64,000 bases of DNA from an uncultured Actinomycetes bacterium (lineage in GTDB: Bacteria; Actinomycetota; UBA4738; HRBIN12): NCBI GenBank assembly GCA_963850315.1, contig CAWKKN010000007.1:146719-210718 (forward strand), written 5' to 3'. Numbering within the stretch: position 1 is the stretch's first letter; each line of letters begins with the position of its first letter. Positions 49,797 to 56,624 of the stretch are shown here, in pieces. The translations under genes were made by a program, and so were the position numbers. The notes below the pieces were generated by a model. The model searched no databases. It was given only the letters and a program-made list of their open reading frames with translations, and was not told the origin of the DNA.

Positions 49797-51266
49797 ATGC
49801 ACCTCGTGAACGCGCCTTCCCCGGCTGGGAGCCGCACGCGCGACGCCGTGCGCAATCCCGACTTCGTCCGACTGCTGCTGATCCGGCTGGTCAGCCAGAC
49901 CGCCGATGGCCTCATCCAGGCGGCGCTCGTGGCGTCCCTCGCGTTCTCCCCCGAGAAGCAGAGCACCGCCTCGGGCTTCGCGACGGCCACGGCGATCGTG
50001 ATCCTGCCGTTCTCGCTGGTCGGCCCCTTCGCCGGCGTGTTCATCGATCGCTGGTCGCGGCGCAAGATCATGGTGATCGCGCCGCTGCTGCGCGCTGCGC
50101 CGGTCTTCCTCGTGTTGCTGAGTCCCACGAAGCAGCCGGTGCTGTTCTACGCCGGTGCTCTGTGGGTCACCTCCGTGAACCGGTTCTTCCTCTCGACCGC
50201 ACAGGCGGTGGTCCCCAGGCTCGTGCCGGCCGAGGACCTGCTGGCAGCGAACTCCATCGCCACGGTCGGAGGCACGGTGGCGCTGCTGGTGGGAGTCTTC
50301 GCGGGCGGGCTCATGTCGTCGCGGTTCGGCAACGGCGCCATCGTGACCGCCTCCAGCGTGATGTGGATCGCCGCCGCCGCCGTGGCGACGAGGATCCGCA
50401 GCGACCTGCGGCCGCACCAGCTTCCGGAGGCGCCGGAGCTGCTGCGTCACCAGATCCGGCGCGTGGGAGCAGAGTTCGTGGAAGGGGTCGAGGACCTCGC
50501 CCACACCCCCCGGGCGCTCGGTCCCATCGTCTCGATCGCGGTGGACCAGATCGGTCAGGGATTCGTCCTCGTCCTCGCATTGGTGGTCTTCCGTCAGCGC
50601 TTCGGGGAGGGCGTGGGGTCGTTCTCCTGGCTGATCGGAGCGGGCGGCGTCGGCGTGTTCCTCGGGCTGCTCACGGTGAACCGGCTCGCGCTCCGGCTCG
50701 AACGCAGCCGGATCGTCGCGTGGTCGTTCGTGCTGGGCGCGGTGTCGCTGATCGGGGTCGCGCTCTTCCTGAACCGTTGGAGCGTGCTGGTCGCGAGCTT
50801 CGTCATCGGGCTCACGTACGCGTGGAAGAAGGTGCCGATCGACACGATGGTCCAAGAGGCGGTTCCCGACGGGCTTCGCGGGCGCGTGTTCGCCGTCTAC
50901 GACGTCGCCACGAACGTGTCGCGCCTGCTCGCCGCCCTGCTCGCGATCCCGCTCCTGCCCTGGATGGGCGTCCGTGGCGCGTCGGCGTTCATGGGCATGG
51001 TGTTCCTTCTGTGGGCGCCGGTGTTGCCCGCCTGGCTCCGACGCGCTCCGGTGATCCGCCTGCGATTCGATCCAGGGGAGCGCGTAGCCCCTCGGGCGAT
51101 CTGGTGGGGAGGGGTCGAAGAACCCGTGGAGGTCGTGGACTCGGGCCTGCAGGAGCGGTCAGGTTCGCTCGTGCGCACGTTGCGACTGGCGCTGCAGGAC
51201 GGATCGACGATGGAGGTGAGCCATGTCGAACCCGACGGAGATTGGGTGGTCGAGCGCCGGTCGTAA
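49797..51266 (+). CDS. MFS transporter with extra soluble C-terminal domain
   Basis: GPFAGVFIDRWSRR motif A; ~12 TMs; LRGRVFAVYD; hydrophilic tail of ~70 aa. Confidence 0.88.
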   Translation: MHLVNAPSPAGSRTRDAVRNPDFVRLLLIRLVSQTADGLIQAALVASLAFSPEKQSTASGFATATAIVILPFSLVGPFAGVFIDRWSRRKIMVIAPLLRAAPVFLVLLSPTKQPVLFYAGALWVTSVNRFFLSTAQAVVPRLVPAEDLLAANSIATVGGTVALLVGVFAGGLMSSRFGNGAIVTASSVMWIAAAAVATRIRSDLRPHQLPEAPELLRHQIRRVGAEFVEGVEDLAHTPRALGPIVSIAVDQIGQGFVLVLALVVFRQRFGEGVGSFSWLIGAGGVGVFLGLLTVNRLALRLERSRIVAWSFVLGAVSLIGVALFLNRWSVLVASFVIGLTYAWKKVPIDTMVQEAVPDGLRGRVFAVYDVATNVSRLLAALLAIPLLPWMGVRGASAFMGMVFLLWAPVLPAWLRRAPVIRLRFDPGERVAPRAIWWGGVEEPVEVVDSGLQERSGSLVRTLRLALQDGSTMEVSHVEPDGDWVVERRS

Positions 51267-53665: not shown

Positions 53666-54394
53666 GTGCCTCGCGACTGGGACGCCGCCGGCTACGATCG
53701 CCTGCCCATCCCGATGACGCGGTGGGGCGCCCTCGTCGTGGGCTGGCTCGATCTGGCCGGTGACGAACGCGTCCTCGACGCCGGCTGCGGAACCGGCCGC
53801 GTCACCGCGTTGCTGCGCGACCGGCTGCCCGCCGGCACGGTCGTGGCGCTGGACGGATCGGCCGCCATGATCGGGCGGGCGCGCGAGCGTCTGGGCGAAG
53901 AGCGAGTGCGGTTCGTCGTCGCCGATCTGTCGGAGCCGCTCGCGATCGAACCCGTCGACGCGATCTTGTCCACGGCGACGTTCCACTGGATCACCGACCA
54001 CGATGCCCTGTTCCGCAACCTCGCGCAGGTGCTGAGGTCCGGCGGACAGCTCGCCGCGCAATGCGGTGGGGCGGGCAACATCGCCTCGATCGAGGCGGCG
54101 CTGCGCGCGGTTGGCTCGCGGGGCCGCAAGCACTTCGCGACGCCGGAGGCGACCGAGACTCGGCTCCGTGCGGCTGGGTTCACCGACATCGAGTGCTGGC
54201 TCCACGAGGAGCCGACGCCCATCCCGGAGGCCGACCTGGAGCCCTACCTGCGGACGATCTGCCTCGGCGATCTCCTCGAGGAGATCGCCGAACCCGCCCG
54301 CGCGGAGTTCGTCCACGAGGTGGCCGCCCGCATGCCGGCGCCCGTCATCGACTACGTGCGCCTCAACATCCGGGCTCGTCGCGCAGGGGCCTAG
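53666..54394 (+). CDS. Class I SAM-dependent methyltransferase (Tam-like)
   Basis: WDAAGYDR, VLDAGCGTG, ATFHWI, QCGGAGNI; TACCCT 7 nt before the GTG. Confidence 0.88.
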   Translation: MPRDWDAAGYDRLPIPMTRWGALVVGWLDLAGDERVLDAGCGTGRVTALLRDRLPAGTVVALDGSAAMIGRARERLGEERVRFVVADLSEPLAIEPVDAILSTATFHWITDHDALFRNLAQVLRSGGQLAAQCGGAGNIASIEAALRAVGSRGRKHFATPEATETRLRAAGFTDIECWLHEEPTPIPEADLEPYLRTICLGDLLEEIAEPARAEFVHEVAARMPAPVIDYVRLNIRARRAGA

Positions 54395-54963
54395 ATGAAC
54401 AGCGAGACCGCGGCGTCCCGCATCTCGGCGATCGCCGTGGCGGCGCCGATGGGCTCCTCGAGACCGTCCAGCAGGTCCGAGGACTTCAGGCCCAGCAGGT
54501 CCATCGTCATCTGACAGGGGATGAGGCGAACGCCGAGATCCTGCGCGGTGGCGATCAGCTCCTCGGGCCTGGCCACCTGGTGATCGTCGGCGAGCTTCTT
54601 GAACATCGTCGGCCCGGCGCCCGCGAAGTGGTACCGCGAAAGCTTCGCCTTCTGGGCCGAGCCGGGATTCATCGCGCTCATCATCTTCTGCATCCAGTTG
54701 TCGCCGGTGATGCGCACGCCGGGCTTCACGATCGCGAACAACCCCCAGAAGGTGAAGAAGACGCTCGACTCCATGCCGCTGGCGGCGGCCGTGGTGGCGA
54801 GGATCGTGGTCGGCCAGATGCGGTCCAGATCTCCGCCCCAGGCGATGATCGTGAGCTTGTTCTTCTTCTGGATCCGGCGGTGTTCGGATGCCTCCAGCGC
54901 CTCGACGCGGGCCAGCAACTCGGCGTAGGTGGGGGCCTCGACGCGGTCTTGCGTGGTCGCCAT
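54391..54963 (-). CDS. DsrE2/YrkE-like sulfur-carrier protein
   Basis: FFTFWGL, GVRLIPCQMTMDLLG; directly downstream of tusA. Confidence 0.88.
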   Translation of the reverse strand: MATTQDRVEAPTYAELLARVEALEASEHRRIQKKNKLTIIAWGGDLDRIWPTTILATTAAASGMESSVFFTFWGLFAIVKPGVRITGDNWMQKMMSAMNPGSAQKAKLSRYHFAGAGPTMFKKLADDHQVARPEELIATAQDLGVRLIPCQMTMDLLGLKSSDLLDGLEEPIGAATAIAEMRDAAVSLFI

Positions 54964-54964
54964 C

Positions 54965-55201
54965 TCAGACCTTCCTCACGACGTAGCGGAACGAGCTCTC
55001 GGGACCCTCGCCCGCGTCCACCAACTCGTTCCCGCTCAGCGAGGCCCAGCTCGGTACGTCGGACTTGGAGCCCGGGTCGGTGGCAAGTAGTTCGAGCAAT
55101 TCGCCGGGAGCGGCCGTCTTCAAAGCCTTGGCGAGAGCCACGAGCGGTCCGGGGCAGGACTGCCCGCGGGCGTCGACGGTGGTGCTGACGATGGTGGACA
55201 C
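54965..55201 (-). CDS. tusA: TusA-family sulfur carrier
   Basis: VDARGQSCPGP, LATDPGSKSDVPSW; RBS GGAGG. Confidence 0.88.
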   Translation of the reverse strand: MSTIVSTTVDARGQSCPGPLVALAKALKTAAPGELLELLATDPGSKSDVPSWASLSGNELVDAGEGPESSFRYVVRKV

Positions 55202-55266
55202 AGCGATACCTCCAAAGGAGTCGGGCGGACGGACGGGATGGTGCGCGCGGCGGCGCCGCCTCGATG

Positions 55267-55335
55267 TCAGTTCTGACAGCAGAGGCGGTCGGGGATCATG
55301 GCCCCCACGATGCCGGCTTCGCGTGTGCAGATCAT
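55267..55335 (-). CDS. Putative Cys-rich leader peptide (22 aa)
   Basis: MICTREAGIVGAMIPDRLCCQN*; 19 of 22 codons end in G/C; downstream of TACTCT -10 (55349-54); overlaps the 55256-55288 hairpin. Confidence 0.5.
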   Translation of the reverse strand: MICTREAGIVGAMIPDRLCCQN

Positions 55336-55381
55336 TTGCAGGTGCAACAGAGTACCCCACCCGACACGCTTCGGGAAGCCC

Positions 55382-56194
55382 CTAAGAACCGGGCGGCGGC
55401 GGTGTCACGAGACACCCCTGCGAACGACCCAGCAGGCGGAGGCCGGCGAGGTCGCCCGGACCGTAGTCGGTGACGCCGCCACCGGAGGGTTGCATCAGCT
55501 CCCCCCACTGCTTCGTGTGGCCCATGCCCATCACGTGGCTCAGCTCGTGCTGCAAGACCAACCCCTGGTCGCCGTACTCGCCGAAACCGGTCGGTGACAG
55601 GTCCGAGGCGTTGATCGCCACCCAGCCGCTCACGTAGACATCGCCCGTCTGATCGTCGGGGAGCTCCGGCGAGGCGACGCCCGACGCCTGCTGGCCGTTG
55701 CGGTCGAAGGAGATGTCCGTCTGCGACGGCGTCACCCAAGCGATGAGCACGGGAGCCCAGCGATCGCCGTAGCGCACGGGCTGGTACGCGTCGCGGTGCA
55801 GCGTGGGGATCTCGGCGCTGGGTCCGTCATCGACGAACCGGATGCCGGTGGCGGCGGAGACCCGGTGCAGCGCGCCCCGGATGTCGTCGGCCGAGCCTTC
55901 GGGCGCACCTTCCAGGTTCTCGACGTAGTGGATCGGCGAGCACGGGTTCCAACGGAACGGACGACCCGAGGGGCCGGACAGGATGAAGGAGTAGTCGTGG
56001 CCCGAGGTCTCCGACAACTGGTGCGGTCGCGAGATCACCGGCGCCACCGCGACCGTTGCGAGCACCAACAACGCGATCACCGCGACGATGGCGGCAAGAG
56101 GCCGGCGGCTGCGAGGTGCGGGAGCGAGCGGGGGCCAACCCGGAGGGGGCGGCGGCAGCTCGTGATCGGGACGGGAGGGGAAGGCGGTGCTCAT
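55382..56194 (-). CDS. Membrane-anchored matrixin-type zinc metalloprotease
   Basis: RWNPCSPIHY, HELSHVMGMGH, Met-turn LMQP, GDLAGL. Confidence 0.88.
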   Translation of the reverse strand: MSTAFPSRPDHELPPPPPGWPPLAPAPRSRRPLAAIVAVIALLVLATVAVAPVISRPHQLSETSGHDYSFILSGPSGRPFRWNPCSPIHYVENLEGAPEGSADDIRGALHRVSAATGIRFVDDGPSAEIPTLHRDAYQPVRYGDRWAPVLIAWVTPSQTDISFDRNGQQASGVASPELPDDQTGDVYVSGWVAINASDLSPTGFGEYGDQGLVLQHELSHVMGMGHTKQWGELMQPSGGGVTDYGPGDLAGLRLLGRSQGCLVTPPPPGS

Positions 56195-56243
56195 GTGAGG
56201 GAACCATCGTACGTGGCCCCCGGATCCTGAAATGACGACCGGA

Positions 56244-56624
56244 TCAGCGCACAGCCCCACGACGCCTGGCCGGCCCATAGATGAGGATCACCCGGGCCCG
56301 CAACTGGTCGGCCCGGACGGGGCCGAAGTCGCGGGAATCCGTAGAGGATGCCGCGCGGTCGCCCTGCACCCACCACTCGTCCTCGCCCAGGGGACGCCCA
56401 TCCACATCGTCGCCGGGGATCCCCGTGAGGCGCTTGACGATCTCGAACCCGGGAGGTTGCTCCACGACGACGACGGCACCACGCCGGTAGGAGCGTTGAG
56501 TGACCGCGATCGCCCAGTCGCCGGGGGCCAACGTGGGCATCATCGACGCGCCCGCGATCGCAACTCGAGAGGGACGAAGACACACCCATGCCAGTCCCGC
56601 CGACACCGCGACGGCCGCCGCCAC
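56244..56624 (-). CDS. sodX: NiSOD maturation peptidase (S26-like); start uncertain
   Basis: GASMMPTL..GD, IVKRL, WWVQGD..STDSRDFG; divergent from sodN. Confidence 0.82.
   Translation of the reverse strand: MAAAVAVSAGLAWVCLRPSRVAIAGASMMPTLAPGDWAIAVTQRSYRRGAVVVVEQPPGFEIVKRLTGIPGDDVDGRPLGEDEWWVQGDRAASSTDSRDFGPVRADQLRARVILIYGPARRRGAVR

What the first reader, a model, noticed from the sequence alone, without database searches (positions are those of the whole stretch)
55205..55354. Cys-Cys leader peptide and RNA switch upstream of tusA-dsrE: candidate cysteine-sensing attenuator
Seen on the minus strand: TACTCT promoter; ORF MICTREAGIVGAMIPDRLCCQN* with coding-like GC3; its UGC-UGU codons lie in the 5' arm of hairpin CCGCCUC-UGC-UGUCAG-AA-CUGACA-UC-GAGGCGG (55288-55256); the tusA SD is folded in CUCC-UUU-GGAG (55220-55210). 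Known: polycysteine leader ORFs attenuate sulfur genes in mycobacteria; TusA and DsrE carry persulfide sulfur. Inference: a ribosome paused at CC frees GAGGCGG to pair with CCGCCCGACUC and opens the SD, coupling a sulfur relay to Cys-tRNA supply. I know of no description of this for tusA-dsrE.
Basis: partly seen in the sequence, partly recalled or inferred. Interest (0 to 1): 0.75.

Follow-up and report, generated by a model that had tools for sequence, protein, structure and literature searches.

The report
Conserved cysteine-sensing leader peptide before tusA-dsrE
A 22-codon mini-gene ending in two cysteine codons sits in front of a sulfur-carrier operon; it belongs to a peptide family, found in no database searched, that precedes sulfur-assimilation genes across one uncultured class of soil actinobacteria and most likely reports cysteine shortage through stalled ribosomes.

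Summary
On the minus strand lie a TANNNT -10 element (55354-55349), the sORF MICTREAGIVGAMIPDRLCCQN* (55335-55267), a hairpin holding UGC-UGU in its 5' arm (55288-55256), a C-rich spacer, a GGAGG SD, and tusA-dsrE.

The sORF is translated. Across 33 genus orthologues it is 95% identical, against 74% for tusA and about 42% for the flanks, and 8 of 11 variable sites are third-codon positions.

It belongs to a family, MIxTRxxGxVxxMIPxRxCC. The motif occurs in 150 of 182 genomes of this uncultured class, 1-4 copies each, and at chance level elsewhere in the phylum. It precedes tusA-dsrE, sulfite reductase, PAPS/APS reductase, rhodanese and beta-carbonic-anhydrase genes. It matches no Pfam or NCBIfam model and none of the six mycobacterial polycysteine leaders I could read.

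A cysteine-sensing leader is therefore well supported.

How stalling is converted into expression is unresolved. The candidates are SD unmasking and masking of a Rho loading site in the spacer (51% C, 23% G).

A palindrome, TTGCACCTGCAA, next to the -10 marks a probable Fur-family regulon.

Verdict: new variant of a known kind.

The parts
55349..55354 (-). -10 promoter element TACTCT (TANNNT)
   Evidence: In 29 orthologues T, A and the final T are invariant while the three middle bases vary (TAGGCT, TAGACT, TACGCT, TATGGT...). A TTGNNN -35-like hexamer lies 18 nt upstream in most. The simple sigma-70 scan did not call it. No TSS data are available.
55336..55347 (.). Palindromic box TTGCACCTGCAA between the -10 and the ATG; candidate repressor operator
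   Evidence: Near-invariant in the genus. It follows the -10 directly in the tusA, sirA, cysH and rhodanese leader loci of many genomes. The own genome holds 6 sites against about 0.13 expected, all intergenic. It lies upstream of the Fur-family gene in 23 of 30 relatives.
55267..55335 (-). Leader sORF, 22 codons plus TGA: MICTREAGIVGAMIPDRLCCQN*
   Evidence: 95% nt identity in the genus, with 8 of 11 variable sites at third codon positions (P = 0.009). Family-wide, T4, R5, G8, V10 and R17 are invariant residues each encoded by 4-5 different codons; G8 and V10 were not imposed by the search pattern. One copy per genome lies upstream of tusA.
55276..55281 (-). Regulatory Cys codons 19-20 (UGC-UGU)
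   Evidence: CC is kept in 33 of 34 genus orthologues and in all homologues from other families. Codon 19 is TGC in 65 of 66 and codon 20 is TGT in 66 of 66 unique leader cores, although TGT makes up only 16.5% of Cys codons in this genome.
55256..55288 (-). Hairpin H1: 5' arm covers codons R17-Q21 including both Cys codons; the stop codon sits at the loop and 3' arm
   Evidence: Centroid structure. A hairpin engaging UGC-UGU is present in every orthologue folded, with different partner sequences and some compensatory changes. As a class it is only weakly above shuffles.
55214..55255 (-). C-rich, G-poor spacer (candidate anti-SD reservoir and/or Rho loading site)
   Evidence: Across 100 tusA-type leaders the spacer is 51% C and 23% G, against 33% and 34% upstream of 127 other SD-bearing genes of this genome (p = 6e-37). 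rho is present in the genome.
55209..55220 (-). CUCC-UUU-GGAGG: anti-SD-like tetramer and the tusA Shine-Dalgarno (GGAGG at 55213-55209)
   Evidence: Sequence. SD P(unpaired) is 0.18 in the window and 0.215 on average in 96 leaders, against 0.366 for other GGAGG sites of the genome. The local hairpin is not significant on its own.
54965..55201 (-). tusA (GTG start; 78 aa; CPGP active-site motif)
   Evidence: Pfam TusA, 5.5e-22.
54391..54963 (-). dsrE-like gene (DsrE_2 family; 190 aa); its ATG lies 1 nt after the tusA stop
   Evidence: Pfam DrsE_2, 1.4e-43. An orthologue is present in 35 of 36 other genomes of the genus.

Best explanation
The 22-codon ORF is a translated leader peptide that makes tusA-dsrE expression depend on the supply of charged tRNA-Cys.

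Shown:
- The ORF is under purifying selection as a peptide.
- Its UGC-UGU pair is essentially invariant.
- Homologous leaders precede several sulfur-assimilation operons across a whole class of uncultured Actinomycetota.

Inferred:
- Transcription starts a few bases before the ATG, from the TANNNT promoter, so the mRNA is nearly leaderless.
- When Cys-tRNA is plentiful, the ribosome passes the two Cys codons, terminates two codons later and leaves.
- Hairpin H1, whose 5' arm contains the Cys codons, then forms. The C-rich spacer and the occluded SD keep tusA-dsrE low.
- When Cys-tRNA is scarce, the ribosome dwells on UGC/UGU and holds the 5' arm of H1.
- The purine-rich 3' arm is then free to pair with the C-rich spacer. 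That either exposes the tusA SD (translational attenuation, as in ermC or Ms5788A), or removes single-stranded C-rich RNA needed for Rho loading, or both. TusA and DsrE are made.

The non-Cys residues (MIxTRxxGxVxxMIPxR) probably tune the pause from inside the ribosome. A second, transcriptional layer is likely: the TTGCACCTGCAA palindrome overlapping the start site looks like the operator of an autoregulated Fur-family repressor.
For: Translation and peptide selection:
- In the genus the sORF is 95% identical, against 74% for tusA and 41-43% for the flanks. Of 11 variable sites, 8 are third-codon positions (P = 0.009).
- Family-wide, T4, R5, G8, V10 and R17 are invariant residues each using 4-5 codons. 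G8 and V10 were free in the search pattern.

Cys codons:
- CC is kept in 33 of 34 genus orthologues and in diverged homologues from other families, such as MIRTRSWGDVGRMIPFRGCC... and MIQTRRWGAVAAMIPDRGCC... These were retrieved through DsrE, not through the peptide.
- Many relatives carry CCC plus further Cys residues.

Regulon logic:
- The same leader precedes TusA (103 loci), sulfite reductase (16), two-domain rhodanese (16), PAPS reductase (3) and beta-carbonic anhydrase (2) (Pfam).
- The sirA, cysH, rhodanese and CA versions carry a GC hairpin followed by a U-rich tract between the leader and the gene.
- A paralogous tusA-dsrE pair behind an SQR-like gene has no leader.
- The own genome has a second copy before a rhodanese gene.

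Distribution: 149 of 201 genomes of the order and 150 of 182 of the class carry 1-4 copies, while the reversed-pattern control gave 0.

RNA:
- The Cys codons always lie in the 5' arm of a hairpin, and a sister-clade hairpin shows covariation.
- The tusA SD is predicted to be more occluded than other SDs (0.215 vs 0.366, p = 5e-8).
- A stalled-ribosome constraint raises SD access from 0.29 to 0.35, whereas the control position gives 0.29.
- The f6 clade has a roughly 20-bp duplex between the sORF 3' end and the SD, and I read by eye a 9-bp competing pairing of the ermC kind.
- The spacer is C-rich and rho is present.

Precedent: mycobacterial polycysteine leaders have been shown experimentally to work by ribosome stalling and SD unmasking (bioRxiv 10.1101/834739).
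Against: - There are no expression, TSS or ribosome data.
- There are only two Cys codons, and the stop follows two codons later. Stalled and terminating ribosomes therefore cover almost the same RNA, so the signal must be kinetic.
- The folds in the window are not better than shuffles.
- Stop-codon enclosure is 97% against 88% in shuffles.
- The predicted gain in SD access on stalling is small overall, and nil in the window (0.12 to 0.15).
- The H1 3' arm and the spacer show no coevolution.
- RNAalifold did not recover H1 from a sequence alignment of the genus, because its register shifts between subclades.
- Synonymous sites of the sORF are themselves unusually conserved (third-position identity 0.894 vs 0.548 in tusA). 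So there is a nucleotide-level constraint that I have not explained.
- No canonical terminator is present in the tusA class.
- The predicted 5' UTR of about 6-8 nt has no SD, so how the sORF initiates is unknown.
Confidence: 0.7

Rival explanations
1. Same sensor, different output. The leader controls Rho-dependent premature termination in the C-rich spacer, in the manner of tnaC or mgtL/corA, rather than SD accessibility. With Cys plentiful, H1 sequesters the only purine-rich segment, so the C-rich RNA stays single-stranded and Rho loads. With the ribosome stalled, the freed purine arm pairs with the C tract and Rho cannot load.
For: The spacer is 51% C and 23% G with a median length of 67 nt, against 33% and 34% upstream of other genes (p = 6e-37). 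rho is present. The tusA class has no intrinsic terminator. The predicted SD effect of stalling is weak. In mycobacteria, polarity on downstream genes was attributed to Rho or RNases.
Against: A C-rich tract is equally what an anti-SD reservoir would look like. The SD is predicted to be occluded. The window's own spacer is short (about 42 nt after H1) and less skewed (43% C and 29% G over the whole 65 nt). A stalled ribosome does not physically cover the tract. No 3'-end data exist.
Confidence: 0.3
2. The sORF encodes a functional small protein, for example a Cys-rich sulfur- or metal-binding peptide or a partner of sulfur-transfer enzymes. Its position upstream would then be plain operon membership, not regulation.
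For: Conservation of 10-12 non-Cys residues is unusually strong across a class-level lineage. It has 3-6 Cys residues and is always linked to sulfur-handling genes.
Against: There are 1-4 copies per genome, each in front of a different sulfur operon, with variable tails after CC. In four operon classes the copy is separated from the gene by a terminator-like hairpin plus U tract. The stop codon and Cys codons are embedded in conserved hairpins. The peptide is only 22 aa, with no Pfam or NCBIfam family.
Confidence: 0.08
3. Inverse logic. Translating the sORF to its end opens the structure over the tusA SD (translational coupling), so tusA-dsrE rises when cysteine is plentiful and falls when ribosomes stall. 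This would suit a persulfide-handling or detoxifying relay.
For: In the f6 clade the last 8 or so codons of the sORF form a long duplex with the tusA SD. A ribosome reaching the stop would melt it, while one stalled 15 codons upstream would not. In the own genome's second copy the leader frame runs on to an ATGA overlap with the rhodanese start.
Against: The same leader precedes sirA and cysH behind terminators, which only makes sense if induction follows Cys shortage. In the window's genus the stop is 65 nt or more from the SD, and H1 does not touch the SD. The ATGA overlap lies in a genome that shows frameshifts in neighbouring genes, so it may be an assembly error.
Confidence: 0.07
4. The conserved block is not translated. 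It would be a DNA operator/promoter region or a structured RNA such as a riboswitch, and the ORF is incidental.
For: Synonymous sites are more conserved than in tusA. A palindromic box abuts the ATG. Rare codons (ACA, GAA, GGG, TGT) are retained.
Against: Variable sites are concentrated at third codon positions, and invariant residues use all synonymous codons across the family. The frame, length and stop position are conserved. No Rfam family matches. The whole-leader fold has z = +0.43.
Confidence: 0.03

Closest known systems
Mycobacterial polycysteine leaderless sORF attenuators (Ms5788A/Rv0815A, Ms4527A, Ms4533A, Ms5280A, Ms0113A, Ms0932A, Rv2334A; Canestrari et al. 2020, bioRxiv 10.1101/834739)
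   Same: A short ORF with consecutive Cys codons near its C-terminus lies at or near the 5' end of the mRNA of sulfur and cysteine metabolism operons. Several independent copies per genome form a ribosome-read regulon. The targets overlap (sulfite reductase, thiosulfate sulfurtransferase). Some of the mycobacterial leaders also conserve non-Cys residues.
   Different: The peptide has no sequence similarity to the six mycobacterial leaders I could read. It has two Cys codons rather than up to eight. One peptide family with about 12 conserved positions is shared by all operons and about 150 genomes, rather than unrelated leaders. The Cys codons pair with a hairpin arm next to the stop codon, not with the SD. 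A predicted short 5' UTR replaces a leaderless start. tusA-dsrE as a target does not appear in the parts of that paper I could read; its Table 1 is an image. The lineage is a different, uncultured class.
Classical leader-peptide transcription attenuators (trpL, hisL, pheL, ilv leaders; the M. tuberculosis ilvB1 uORF, PMC13236596)
   Same: A leader peptide whose regulatory codons report the charging of one tRNA. The sirA, cysH, rhodanese and CA members of this family do carry a GC hairpin plus U tract between the leader and the gene.
   Different: The tusA member studied here has no U-tract terminator, and the stop codon is only two codons past the regulatory codons. The positional logic of stalled versus stop-codon ribosome used by trp-type attenuators therefore cannot apply.
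ermC/cat-type translational attenuation
   Same: A stalled ribosome on a leader peptide is proposed to melt one hairpin and, by re-pairing, expose the SD of the downstream gene. The f6-clade tusA leaders have the full 1:2 / 3:4 layout with a competing 2:3 pairing.
   Different: The stall signal would be tRNA-Cys supply, not an antibiotic. In the window's genus the 2:3 and 3:4 pairings are not supported by covariation.
Rho-dependent leader control by translated uORFs (E. coli tnaC; Salmonella mgtL/corA leaders; uORF/Rho premature termination in M. tuberculosis, cited in PMC13236596)
   Same: A leader ORF lies next to a C-rich, G-poor untranslated tract, and the stall site is close to the stop codon, as in tnaC.
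   Different: No evidence for Rho action here. The mechanism by which a stall would hide the tract is conjectural.
Nur box of the Streptomyces Fur-family regulator Nur (tTGCaa-N5-ttGCAA; PMC2691836)
   Same: The TTGCA half-sites of the palindrome at 55347-55336 resemble the Nur hexamer. The box is conserved upstream of a Fur-family gene in this lineage.
   Different: The hexamers are adjacent (6-0-6, TTGCAC|CTGCAA) rather than 6-5-6. The associated genes handle sulfur or thiols and proteolysis, not nickel or SOD. Binding is untested.

Membership tests
Mycobacterial-type polycysteine leader sORF attenuator (Canestrari 2020) | Short ORF upstream of, and on the same strand as, a cysteine or sulfur metabolism operon | tested here: met
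   The sORF at 55335-55267 lies 65 nt upstream of tusA-dsrE. Homologous leaders precede sirA, cysH and rhodanese.
Mycobacterial-type polycysteine leader sORF attenuator (Canestrari 2020) | At least two consecutive Cys codons, conserved, near the C-terminus | tested here: met
   C19-C20 of 22 residues; kept in 33 of 34 genus orthologues and in all homologues from other families.
Mycobacterial-type polycysteine leader sORF attenuator (Canestrari 2020) | Leaderless transcript (TSS at the A/G of the start codon) | tested here: inconclusive
   The conserved TANNNT ends 13 nt before the ATG, which predicts a 6-8 nt 5' UTR. In one other family (G039) it ends 7 nt before the ATG, which is compatible with a leaderless start.
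Mycobacterial-type polycysteine leader sORF attenuator (Canestrari 2020) | The Cys-codon tract base-pairs with the SD region of the downstream gene | tested here: not met
   In the window and its genus, UGC-UGU pairs with the 3' arm of hairpin H1 next to the stop codon, not with the SD.
Mycobacterial-type polycysteine leader sORF attenuator (Canestrari 2020) | Peptide homology to a described leader (Ms5788A, Ms4527A, Ms4533A, Ms5280A, Ms0113A, Ms0932A) | tested here: not met
   The sequences read from the paper's supplement show no similarity. NCBIfam and Pfam give no hit at E <= 10.
Mycobacterial-type polycysteine leader sORF attenuator (Canestrari 2020) | Expression of the downstream genes responds to cysteine and needs sORF translation | not testable with these tools
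   Uncultured organism; no expression data available.
Classical leader-peptide transcription attenuator (trp/his type) | Intrinsic terminator (GC hairpin plus U tract) between the leader ORF and the gene | tested here: not met
   No terminator-like site in 54300-55600, and no U run after H1. The feature is present in the sirA, cysH, rhodanese and CA members of the same peptide family.
Classical leader-peptide transcription attenuator (trp/his type) | Mutually exclusive antiterminator selected by ribosome position (regulatory codons versus stop codon) | tested here: not met
   The stop lies two codons after the Cys codons, so the two ribosome positions overlap almost completely.
ermC-type translational attenuation | SD of the regulated gene occluded in the ground state | tested here: met
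   This is a prediction only. P(unpaired) of GGAGG is 0.18 in the window and 0.215 on average in 96 leaders, against 0.366 at 127 other GGAGG sites (p = 5e-8). The leaders are related, so the p-value is optimistic.
ermC-type translational attenuation | The stall frees a segment whose re-pairing exposes the SD | tested here: inconclusive
   SD access rises from 0.29 to 0.35 overall but only from 0.12 to 0.15 in the window. There is no coevolution between the 3' arm and the spacer. A clear 2:3 alternative is seen only in the f6 clade.
Rho-dependent uORF-controlled leader | C-rich, G-poor unstructured tract downstream of the uORF, with rho present | tested here: met
   51% C and 23% G against 33% and 34%. 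Rho_RNA_bind scores 4.1e-33 in the genome.
Rho-dependent uORF-controlled leader | Premature 3' ends in the leader that depend on Rho | not testable with these tools
   No transcript-end data.
Rfam cis-regulatory RNA families | Match to a curated covariance model | tested here: not met
   Nothing on the minus strand of 55205-55354 at E <= 10.

The most novel reading that the evidence does not exclude
The conserved 20-residue peptide (MIxTRxxGxVxxMIPxR-x-CC) is a dedicated arrest or pausing peptide. From inside the exit tunnel it slows peptide-bond formation at the UGC-UGU pair, so that two Cys codons are enough to read tRNA-Cys charging. Alternatively it lets the ribosome sense free cysteine or a sulfur metabolite directly, as TnaC senses tryptophan. 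One ribosome-peptide sensor would then be wired to both terminator-type and non-terminator outputs across a class of bacteria, and combined with a Fur-family repressor acting on sulfur genes.
Probability: 0.2. Interest if true: 0.8.

Novelty: new variant of a known kind. Interest (0 to 1): 0.55.

Why it matters
Cysteine-sensing leader peptides have been shown experimentally only in mycobacteria. There, each operon has its own unrelated Cys-rich leader.

Here a single, strongly conserved leader peptide is reused in front of at least five kinds of sulfur genes in about 80% of the genomes of an uncultured soil actinobacterial class. This has four consequences.

- It extends ribosome-read regulons of sulfur genes well beyond mycobacteria.
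- It adds the TusA-DsrE sulfur relay, rhodanese and a beta-carbonic-anhydrase-like enzyme to the set of genes induced with sulfate reduction. That hints these proteins serve sulfur acquisition for cysteine synthesis in these organisms.
- It offers a natural series of one sensor peptide coupled to different RNA outputs (terminator, SD-duplex, C-rich spacer). This makes the question of what a leader peptide's non-regulatory residues do directly testable.
- It gives annotators a simple motif for finding cysteine-regulated operons in MAGs.

Tried and rejected
- **Rfam scan of the locus.** No family matched.
- **Simple promoter and terminator scan.** Nothing was called. The promoter was inferred from the conservation pattern instead.
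- **The TTG at 55347 as the start (MHLQMICT...).** Rejected. The TTG is part of the palindromic box, which in other operon classes lies about 25 nt further upstream and in no fixed frame.
Neither the cross-species duplex test nor the folds of the window support it.
- **RNAalifold on a sequence alignment of the genus hairpin region.** It failed because the helix register shifts between subclades. I used per-sequence folds and a sister-clade alignment instead.
- **'Stop codon enclosed by a hairpin' as a statistic.** It turned out nearly uninformative in this GC-rich RNA (97% vs 88%).
- **Looking for an antiterminator in the sirA, cysH and rhodanese leaders by constrained MFE folding.** The terminator persisted in all states, so this remains unresolved.
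- **A SigH/SigR-type promoter (GGAAY-N18-19-GTT).** I noted by eye that this reading fits many genus orthologues. It does not fit the sirA-class loci, which have TTGACG-N18-TAGGTT. I left it open.
- **Published version of Canestrari et al.** It could not be fetched, and Table 1 of the preprint is an image. I therefore could not check whether any mycobacterial target is a TusA or DsrE protein.
- **Earlier notes of this scan by peptide sequence.** Nothing was found.
Full report
**1. What is in the sequence**

Reading the minus strand, the elements run in this order:
- TACTCT at 55354-55349;
- the 12-bp palindrome TTGCACCTGCAA at 55347-55336;
- ATG at 55335, opening a 22-codon ORF (MICTREAGIVGAMIPDRLCCQN) that stops at TGA 55269-55267;
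- Cys codons 19-20, UGC-UGU, at 55281-55276;
- the hairpin CCGCCUC.UGC.UGUCAG-AA-CUGACA.UC.GAGGCGG at 55288-55256;
- a C-rich spacer;
- CUCC-UUU-GGAGG, with the SD at 55213-55209;
- GTG at 55201, starting a 78-aa TusA (Pfam 5.5e-22);
- one base after its stop, a 190-aa DsrE_2-family protein (1.4e-43).

The hairpin is the centroid of the predicted fold.

On the window alone the RNA part is not statistically remarkable. The whole leader has z = +0.43. H1 plus spacer has z = -0.48. The SD mini-hairpin has z = +0.41. No Rfam family matches.

**2. The sORF is a conserved, translated gene**

I retrieved orthologous loci through the DsrE protein, not through the sORF. It is present in 35 of 36 other genomes of the genus.

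In the upstream alignment of 29 loci, everything from the -10 to the second Cys codon is almost invariant. The -35/-10 spacer and the region after the stop can barely be aligned.

Conservation figures for 33 loci:

| Region | Mean pairwise nt identity |
|---|---|
| sORF codons 1-20 | 95% |
| 129 nt of tusA | 74% |
| Flanks | 41-43% |

Of 11 variable columns, excluding one divergent species, 8 are third codon positions (P = 0.009), and the changes at them are synonymous. The non-synonymous changes are E6A, L18I and one C20G.

The sORF is 22 codons ending in TGA in 27 of 29 loci. There is one copy of this exact leader per genome, in 34 of 37 genus genomes.

Synonymous sites are nevertheless more conserved than in tusA (third-position identity 0.894 vs 0.548). 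Some nucleotide-level constraint is therefore superimposed. It could be RNA structure, codon choice or the operator.

**3. It is a member of a large peptide family tied to sulfur assimilation**

Other families of the same order carry diverged but clearly homologous leaders before their tusA-dsrE:
- MIRTRRWGEVARMIPCRGCC...
- MIRTRSWGDVGRMIPFRGCC...
- MIQTRRWGAVAAMIPDRGCC...

I scanned all GTDB species representatives for MI.TR-x(5-9)-MIP.R.CC.

Across 66 unique 20-codon cores, G8 and V10 are invariant and use four codons each. The pattern did not impose these two residues. T4, R5 and R17 use 4-5 codons each.

The gene that follows the leader (Pfam):

| Downstream gene | Loci |
|---|---|
| TusA | 103 |
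| NIR_SIR sulfite reductase | 16 |
| Two-domain rhodanese | 16 |
| PAPS_reduct | 3 |
| Pro_CA beta-carbonic anhydrase | 2 |

The window's own genome has a second copy, (L)IRTRCIGVVGAMIPSRLCC..., upstream of a two-domain rhodanese. A paralogous tusA-dsrE pair behind an SQR-like gene has no leader.

Distribution of the core MIPxRxCC DNA pattern:

| Sample | Genomes with a match | Reversed-pattern control |
|---|---|---|
| Order | 149 of 201; 88 of 105 high-quality; 1-4 copies each | 0 |
| Class, which here consists of that one order | 150 of 182 | 0 |
| Rest of the phylum | 10 of 367 | 7 of 367 |

The family is therefore specific to this lineage. One carrier is 'Bacterium HR12'. From memory, this suggests GTDB class UBA4738; I did not verify that.

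Pfam and NCBIfam have no model that matches the peptide. Six mycobacterial leaders listed in the Canestrari supplement are unrelated in sequence: VSTRLELSLTKRRAVDLCRVAGCCCCCCCC, VTSARNSITGSLVARRHVDKRVCSCCCLP, MHSAGAMGSHVVVLPAAAGFCVADAHCCR, MKARTGIKGCCRAQ, VNTTLSADCCCC and VTRKSQRCAQACCCCAHCRA.

**4. What this implies for function**

A short translated ORF has an invariant Cys-Cys pair. It is repeated in front of the sulfate-reduction genes and sulfur-transfer genes of the same genome. In four operon classes it is followed by a GC hairpin plus U tract. This is the signature of a leader peptide that reports tRNA-Cys charging. That principle was shown experimentally for the mycobacterial polycysteine leaders (bioRxiv 10.1101/834739).

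Two details add to it. First, codon 19 is TGC in 65 of 66 cores and codon 20 is TGT in 66 of 66, although TGT makes up only 16.5% of Cys codons in this genome. Second, the leader prefers other rare codons: ACA (4% genome usage) and GAA (16%).

**5. How the signal is passed on is not settled**

(a) The Cys codons always lie in the 5' arm of a hairpin whose loop is at or near the stop codon, but the partner sequence differs between subclades:
- CCGCCUC/GAGGCGG in the window;
- CCGUCUC/GAGACGG, GGCUCUG/CAGGGCC, GCUGUUCCUG/CAGGGACGGC, and others elsewhere.

Some of these changes are compensatory.

In the sister clade (MIRTRCRGLVGAMIPDRCCCPGVPGDGR*), a three-tier hairpin around the stop codon has 89.9% of cells paired against 32-41% for slid controls. 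Its covariation score exceeded all 500 shuffles.

As a bare statistic, however, enclosure of the stop codon by a hairpin is 97% against 88% in shuffles. RNAalifold on a sequence alignment of the genus did not find the helix.

(b) The tusA SD is predicted to be more occluded than other GGAGG sites of the genome (0.215 vs 0.366). Blocking the RNA covered by a ribosome at the Cys codons raises SD accessibility only from 0.29 to 0.35, and from 0.12 to 0.15 in the window.

Cognate and non-cognate combinations of 3' arm and spacer bind equally well (-11.46 vs -11.50 kcal/mol). With the 5' arm removed, the window's predicted fold still pairs the SD. This test cannot exclude a generic 'SD-mimic' role for the purine-rich arm, because all the arms are GAGG/GGGA-like and all the spacers are CUCC/UCCC-like.

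(d) In the f6 clade the last codons of a longer sORF form a roughly 20-bp duplex with the SD region. A 9-bp segment just after the Cys hairpin (CGCGCCGCG) is exactly complementary to part of that duplex (CGCGGCGCG). This gives a textbook ermC-like 1:2 / 2:3 / 3:4 layout.

(e) The spacer is strikingly C-rich and G-poor (51% and 23%, against 33% and 34% elsewhere; p = 6e-37), and rho is present. Rho-dependent premature termination is therefore a serious alternative output.

(f) No U-tract terminator exists in the tusA class.

The stop is only two codons after CC in the window. Stalled and terminating ribosomes therefore occupy nearly the same RNA, and the signal must be kinetic, that is, dwell time holding H1 open.

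My best reading is SD unmasking, or masking of the C-rich tract, after H1 is held open. I put about 0.7 on the sensor and much less on either output.

**6. A second layer noticed on the way**

The palindrome TTGCACCTGCAA directly follows the -10 in the tusA, sirA, cysH and rhodanese leader loci.

In the own genome it occurs 6 times against about 0.13 expected, always between genes. The sites lie before:
- the two Cys leaders;
- a Prok-JAB plus ThiF pair (of the Mec/MoeZ type);
- a single-domain rhodanese;
- lon;
- a Fur-family gene.

The Fur-family gene carries the box, usually as a tandem pair, in 23 of 30 relatives exactly and as near-variants in most of the rest. The half-site resembles the Nur box tTGCaa-N5-ttGCAA of a Streptomyces Fur homologue (PMC2691836).

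An autoregulated Fur-family repressor of sulfur and thiol genes is a reasonable hypothesis, but it is untested. An earlier first-stage note on another genome had also remarked on a near-palindrome before a TusA-DsrE pair.

**7. Comparison, novelty and verdict**

The element works like the mycobacterial Cys-leader regulon but is not a member of any described leader family. It has a different peptide, two rather than many Cys codons, and no pairing between the Cys tract and the SD. It probably has a short 5' UTR, and in the parts of the literature I could read tusA-dsrE is a new target.

The strong conservation of about 12 non-Cys residues across paralogous leaders and about 150 genomes is the most unusual feature. 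It suggests a role for the nascent chain.

I rate it a new variant of a known kind, with interest 0.55.

Limits:
- all evidence is comparative or predicted;
- the genomes are MAGs, some with evident frameshift errors;
- related sequences inflate the p-values;
- no transcript data could be consulted.

Noticed in passing
window 55336-55347; also G000:C1:60044, C2:389148, C2:406344, C3:51307, C5:186056: The palindrome TTGCACCTGCAA occurs 6 times in the 2.86-Mb genome against about 0.13 expected. All sites are intergenic and lie next to promoters of sulfur/thiol and proteolysis genes: the two Cys leaders, Prok-JAB plus ThiF, a rhodanese, lon and a Fur-family gene. The Fur-family gene carries it in 23 of 30 relatives. 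The half-sites resemble the Nur box. This points to a candidate autoregulated Fur-family regulon.
   Followed up: partly
G000:C5, about 185,967-186,067 (minus strand): A second copy of the leader family, with a TTG start (LIRTRCIGVVGAMIPSRLCC...), lies 35 nt after a TTGACA-N19-TAGCAT promoter plus box and upstream of a two-domain rhodanese. In this assembly the leader frame stays open for about 70 codons and ends in an ATGA overlap with the rhodanese start. The rhodanese gene itself is split by a frameshift, so assembly indels are possible.
   Followed up: partly
L093:4017-4508 and L113:3092-3601 (other genomes): The same Cys leader plus a terminator precedes beta-class carbonic-anhydrase-like genes (Pro_CA, about 1e-13). 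Co-regulation with sulfate-reduction genes suggests a sulfur-related substrate such as COS or CS2 rather than CO2. This is untested.
   Followed up: no
L036-L043 (for example G015:C1:254995-255522): Many genomes of the genus have a second tusA-dsrE pair (about 60% identity) directly downstream of an SQR-like Pyr_redox_2 gene, without any leader sORF. The two pairs therefore seem to serve different roles, oxidation/detoxification versus assimilation.
   Followed up: partly
window 55276-55335: Codon choice in the leader is odd for a 69% GC genome. Codon 20 is always TGT (16.5% genome usage). Thr4 is mostly ACA (4%), Glu6 mostly GAA (16%) and Gly11 mostly GGG. Third-position identity is 0.89 against 0.55 in tusA. 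This nucleotide-level constraint on top of peptide selection is unexplained.
   Followed up: partly
L027 (G029:C4, about 51144-51210) and L002 (G014:C6): These are natural variants. One species has ...DRICG followed by TAG, so the second Cys is lost and the ORF is two codons shorter. Another lacks the stop, and its sORF frame runs on into tusA, which also looks frameshifted there. They may be useful natural 'mutants' or may be assembly errors.
   Followed up: no
window 55385-56278 (minus strand): The gene upstream of the leader encodes a 298-aa protein with an N-terminal hydrophobic segment and an HELSHVMGMGH (HExxHxxGxxH) zinc-metalloprotease motif. It has no Pfam hit at E <= 0.001.
   Followed up: no
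L032-L034 (f6 genera; for example G057:C98): In these tusA leaders the sORF is about 35 codons long. Its last 8 or so codons form a roughly 20-bp duplex with the tusA SD region (local z = -3.7), with a 9-bp competing complement just after the Cys hairpin. This is the clearest ermC-like layout in the family.
   Followed up: partly
window 55295-55315 (codons 8-15): The two in-frame AUGAUC motifs (M1-I2 and M13-I14) and the GGGG...CCCC pairing around the second AUG are conserved. An internal start giving MIPDRLCC..., or an ancient internal duplication (MIxTR / MIPxR), cannot be excluded.
   Followed up: no
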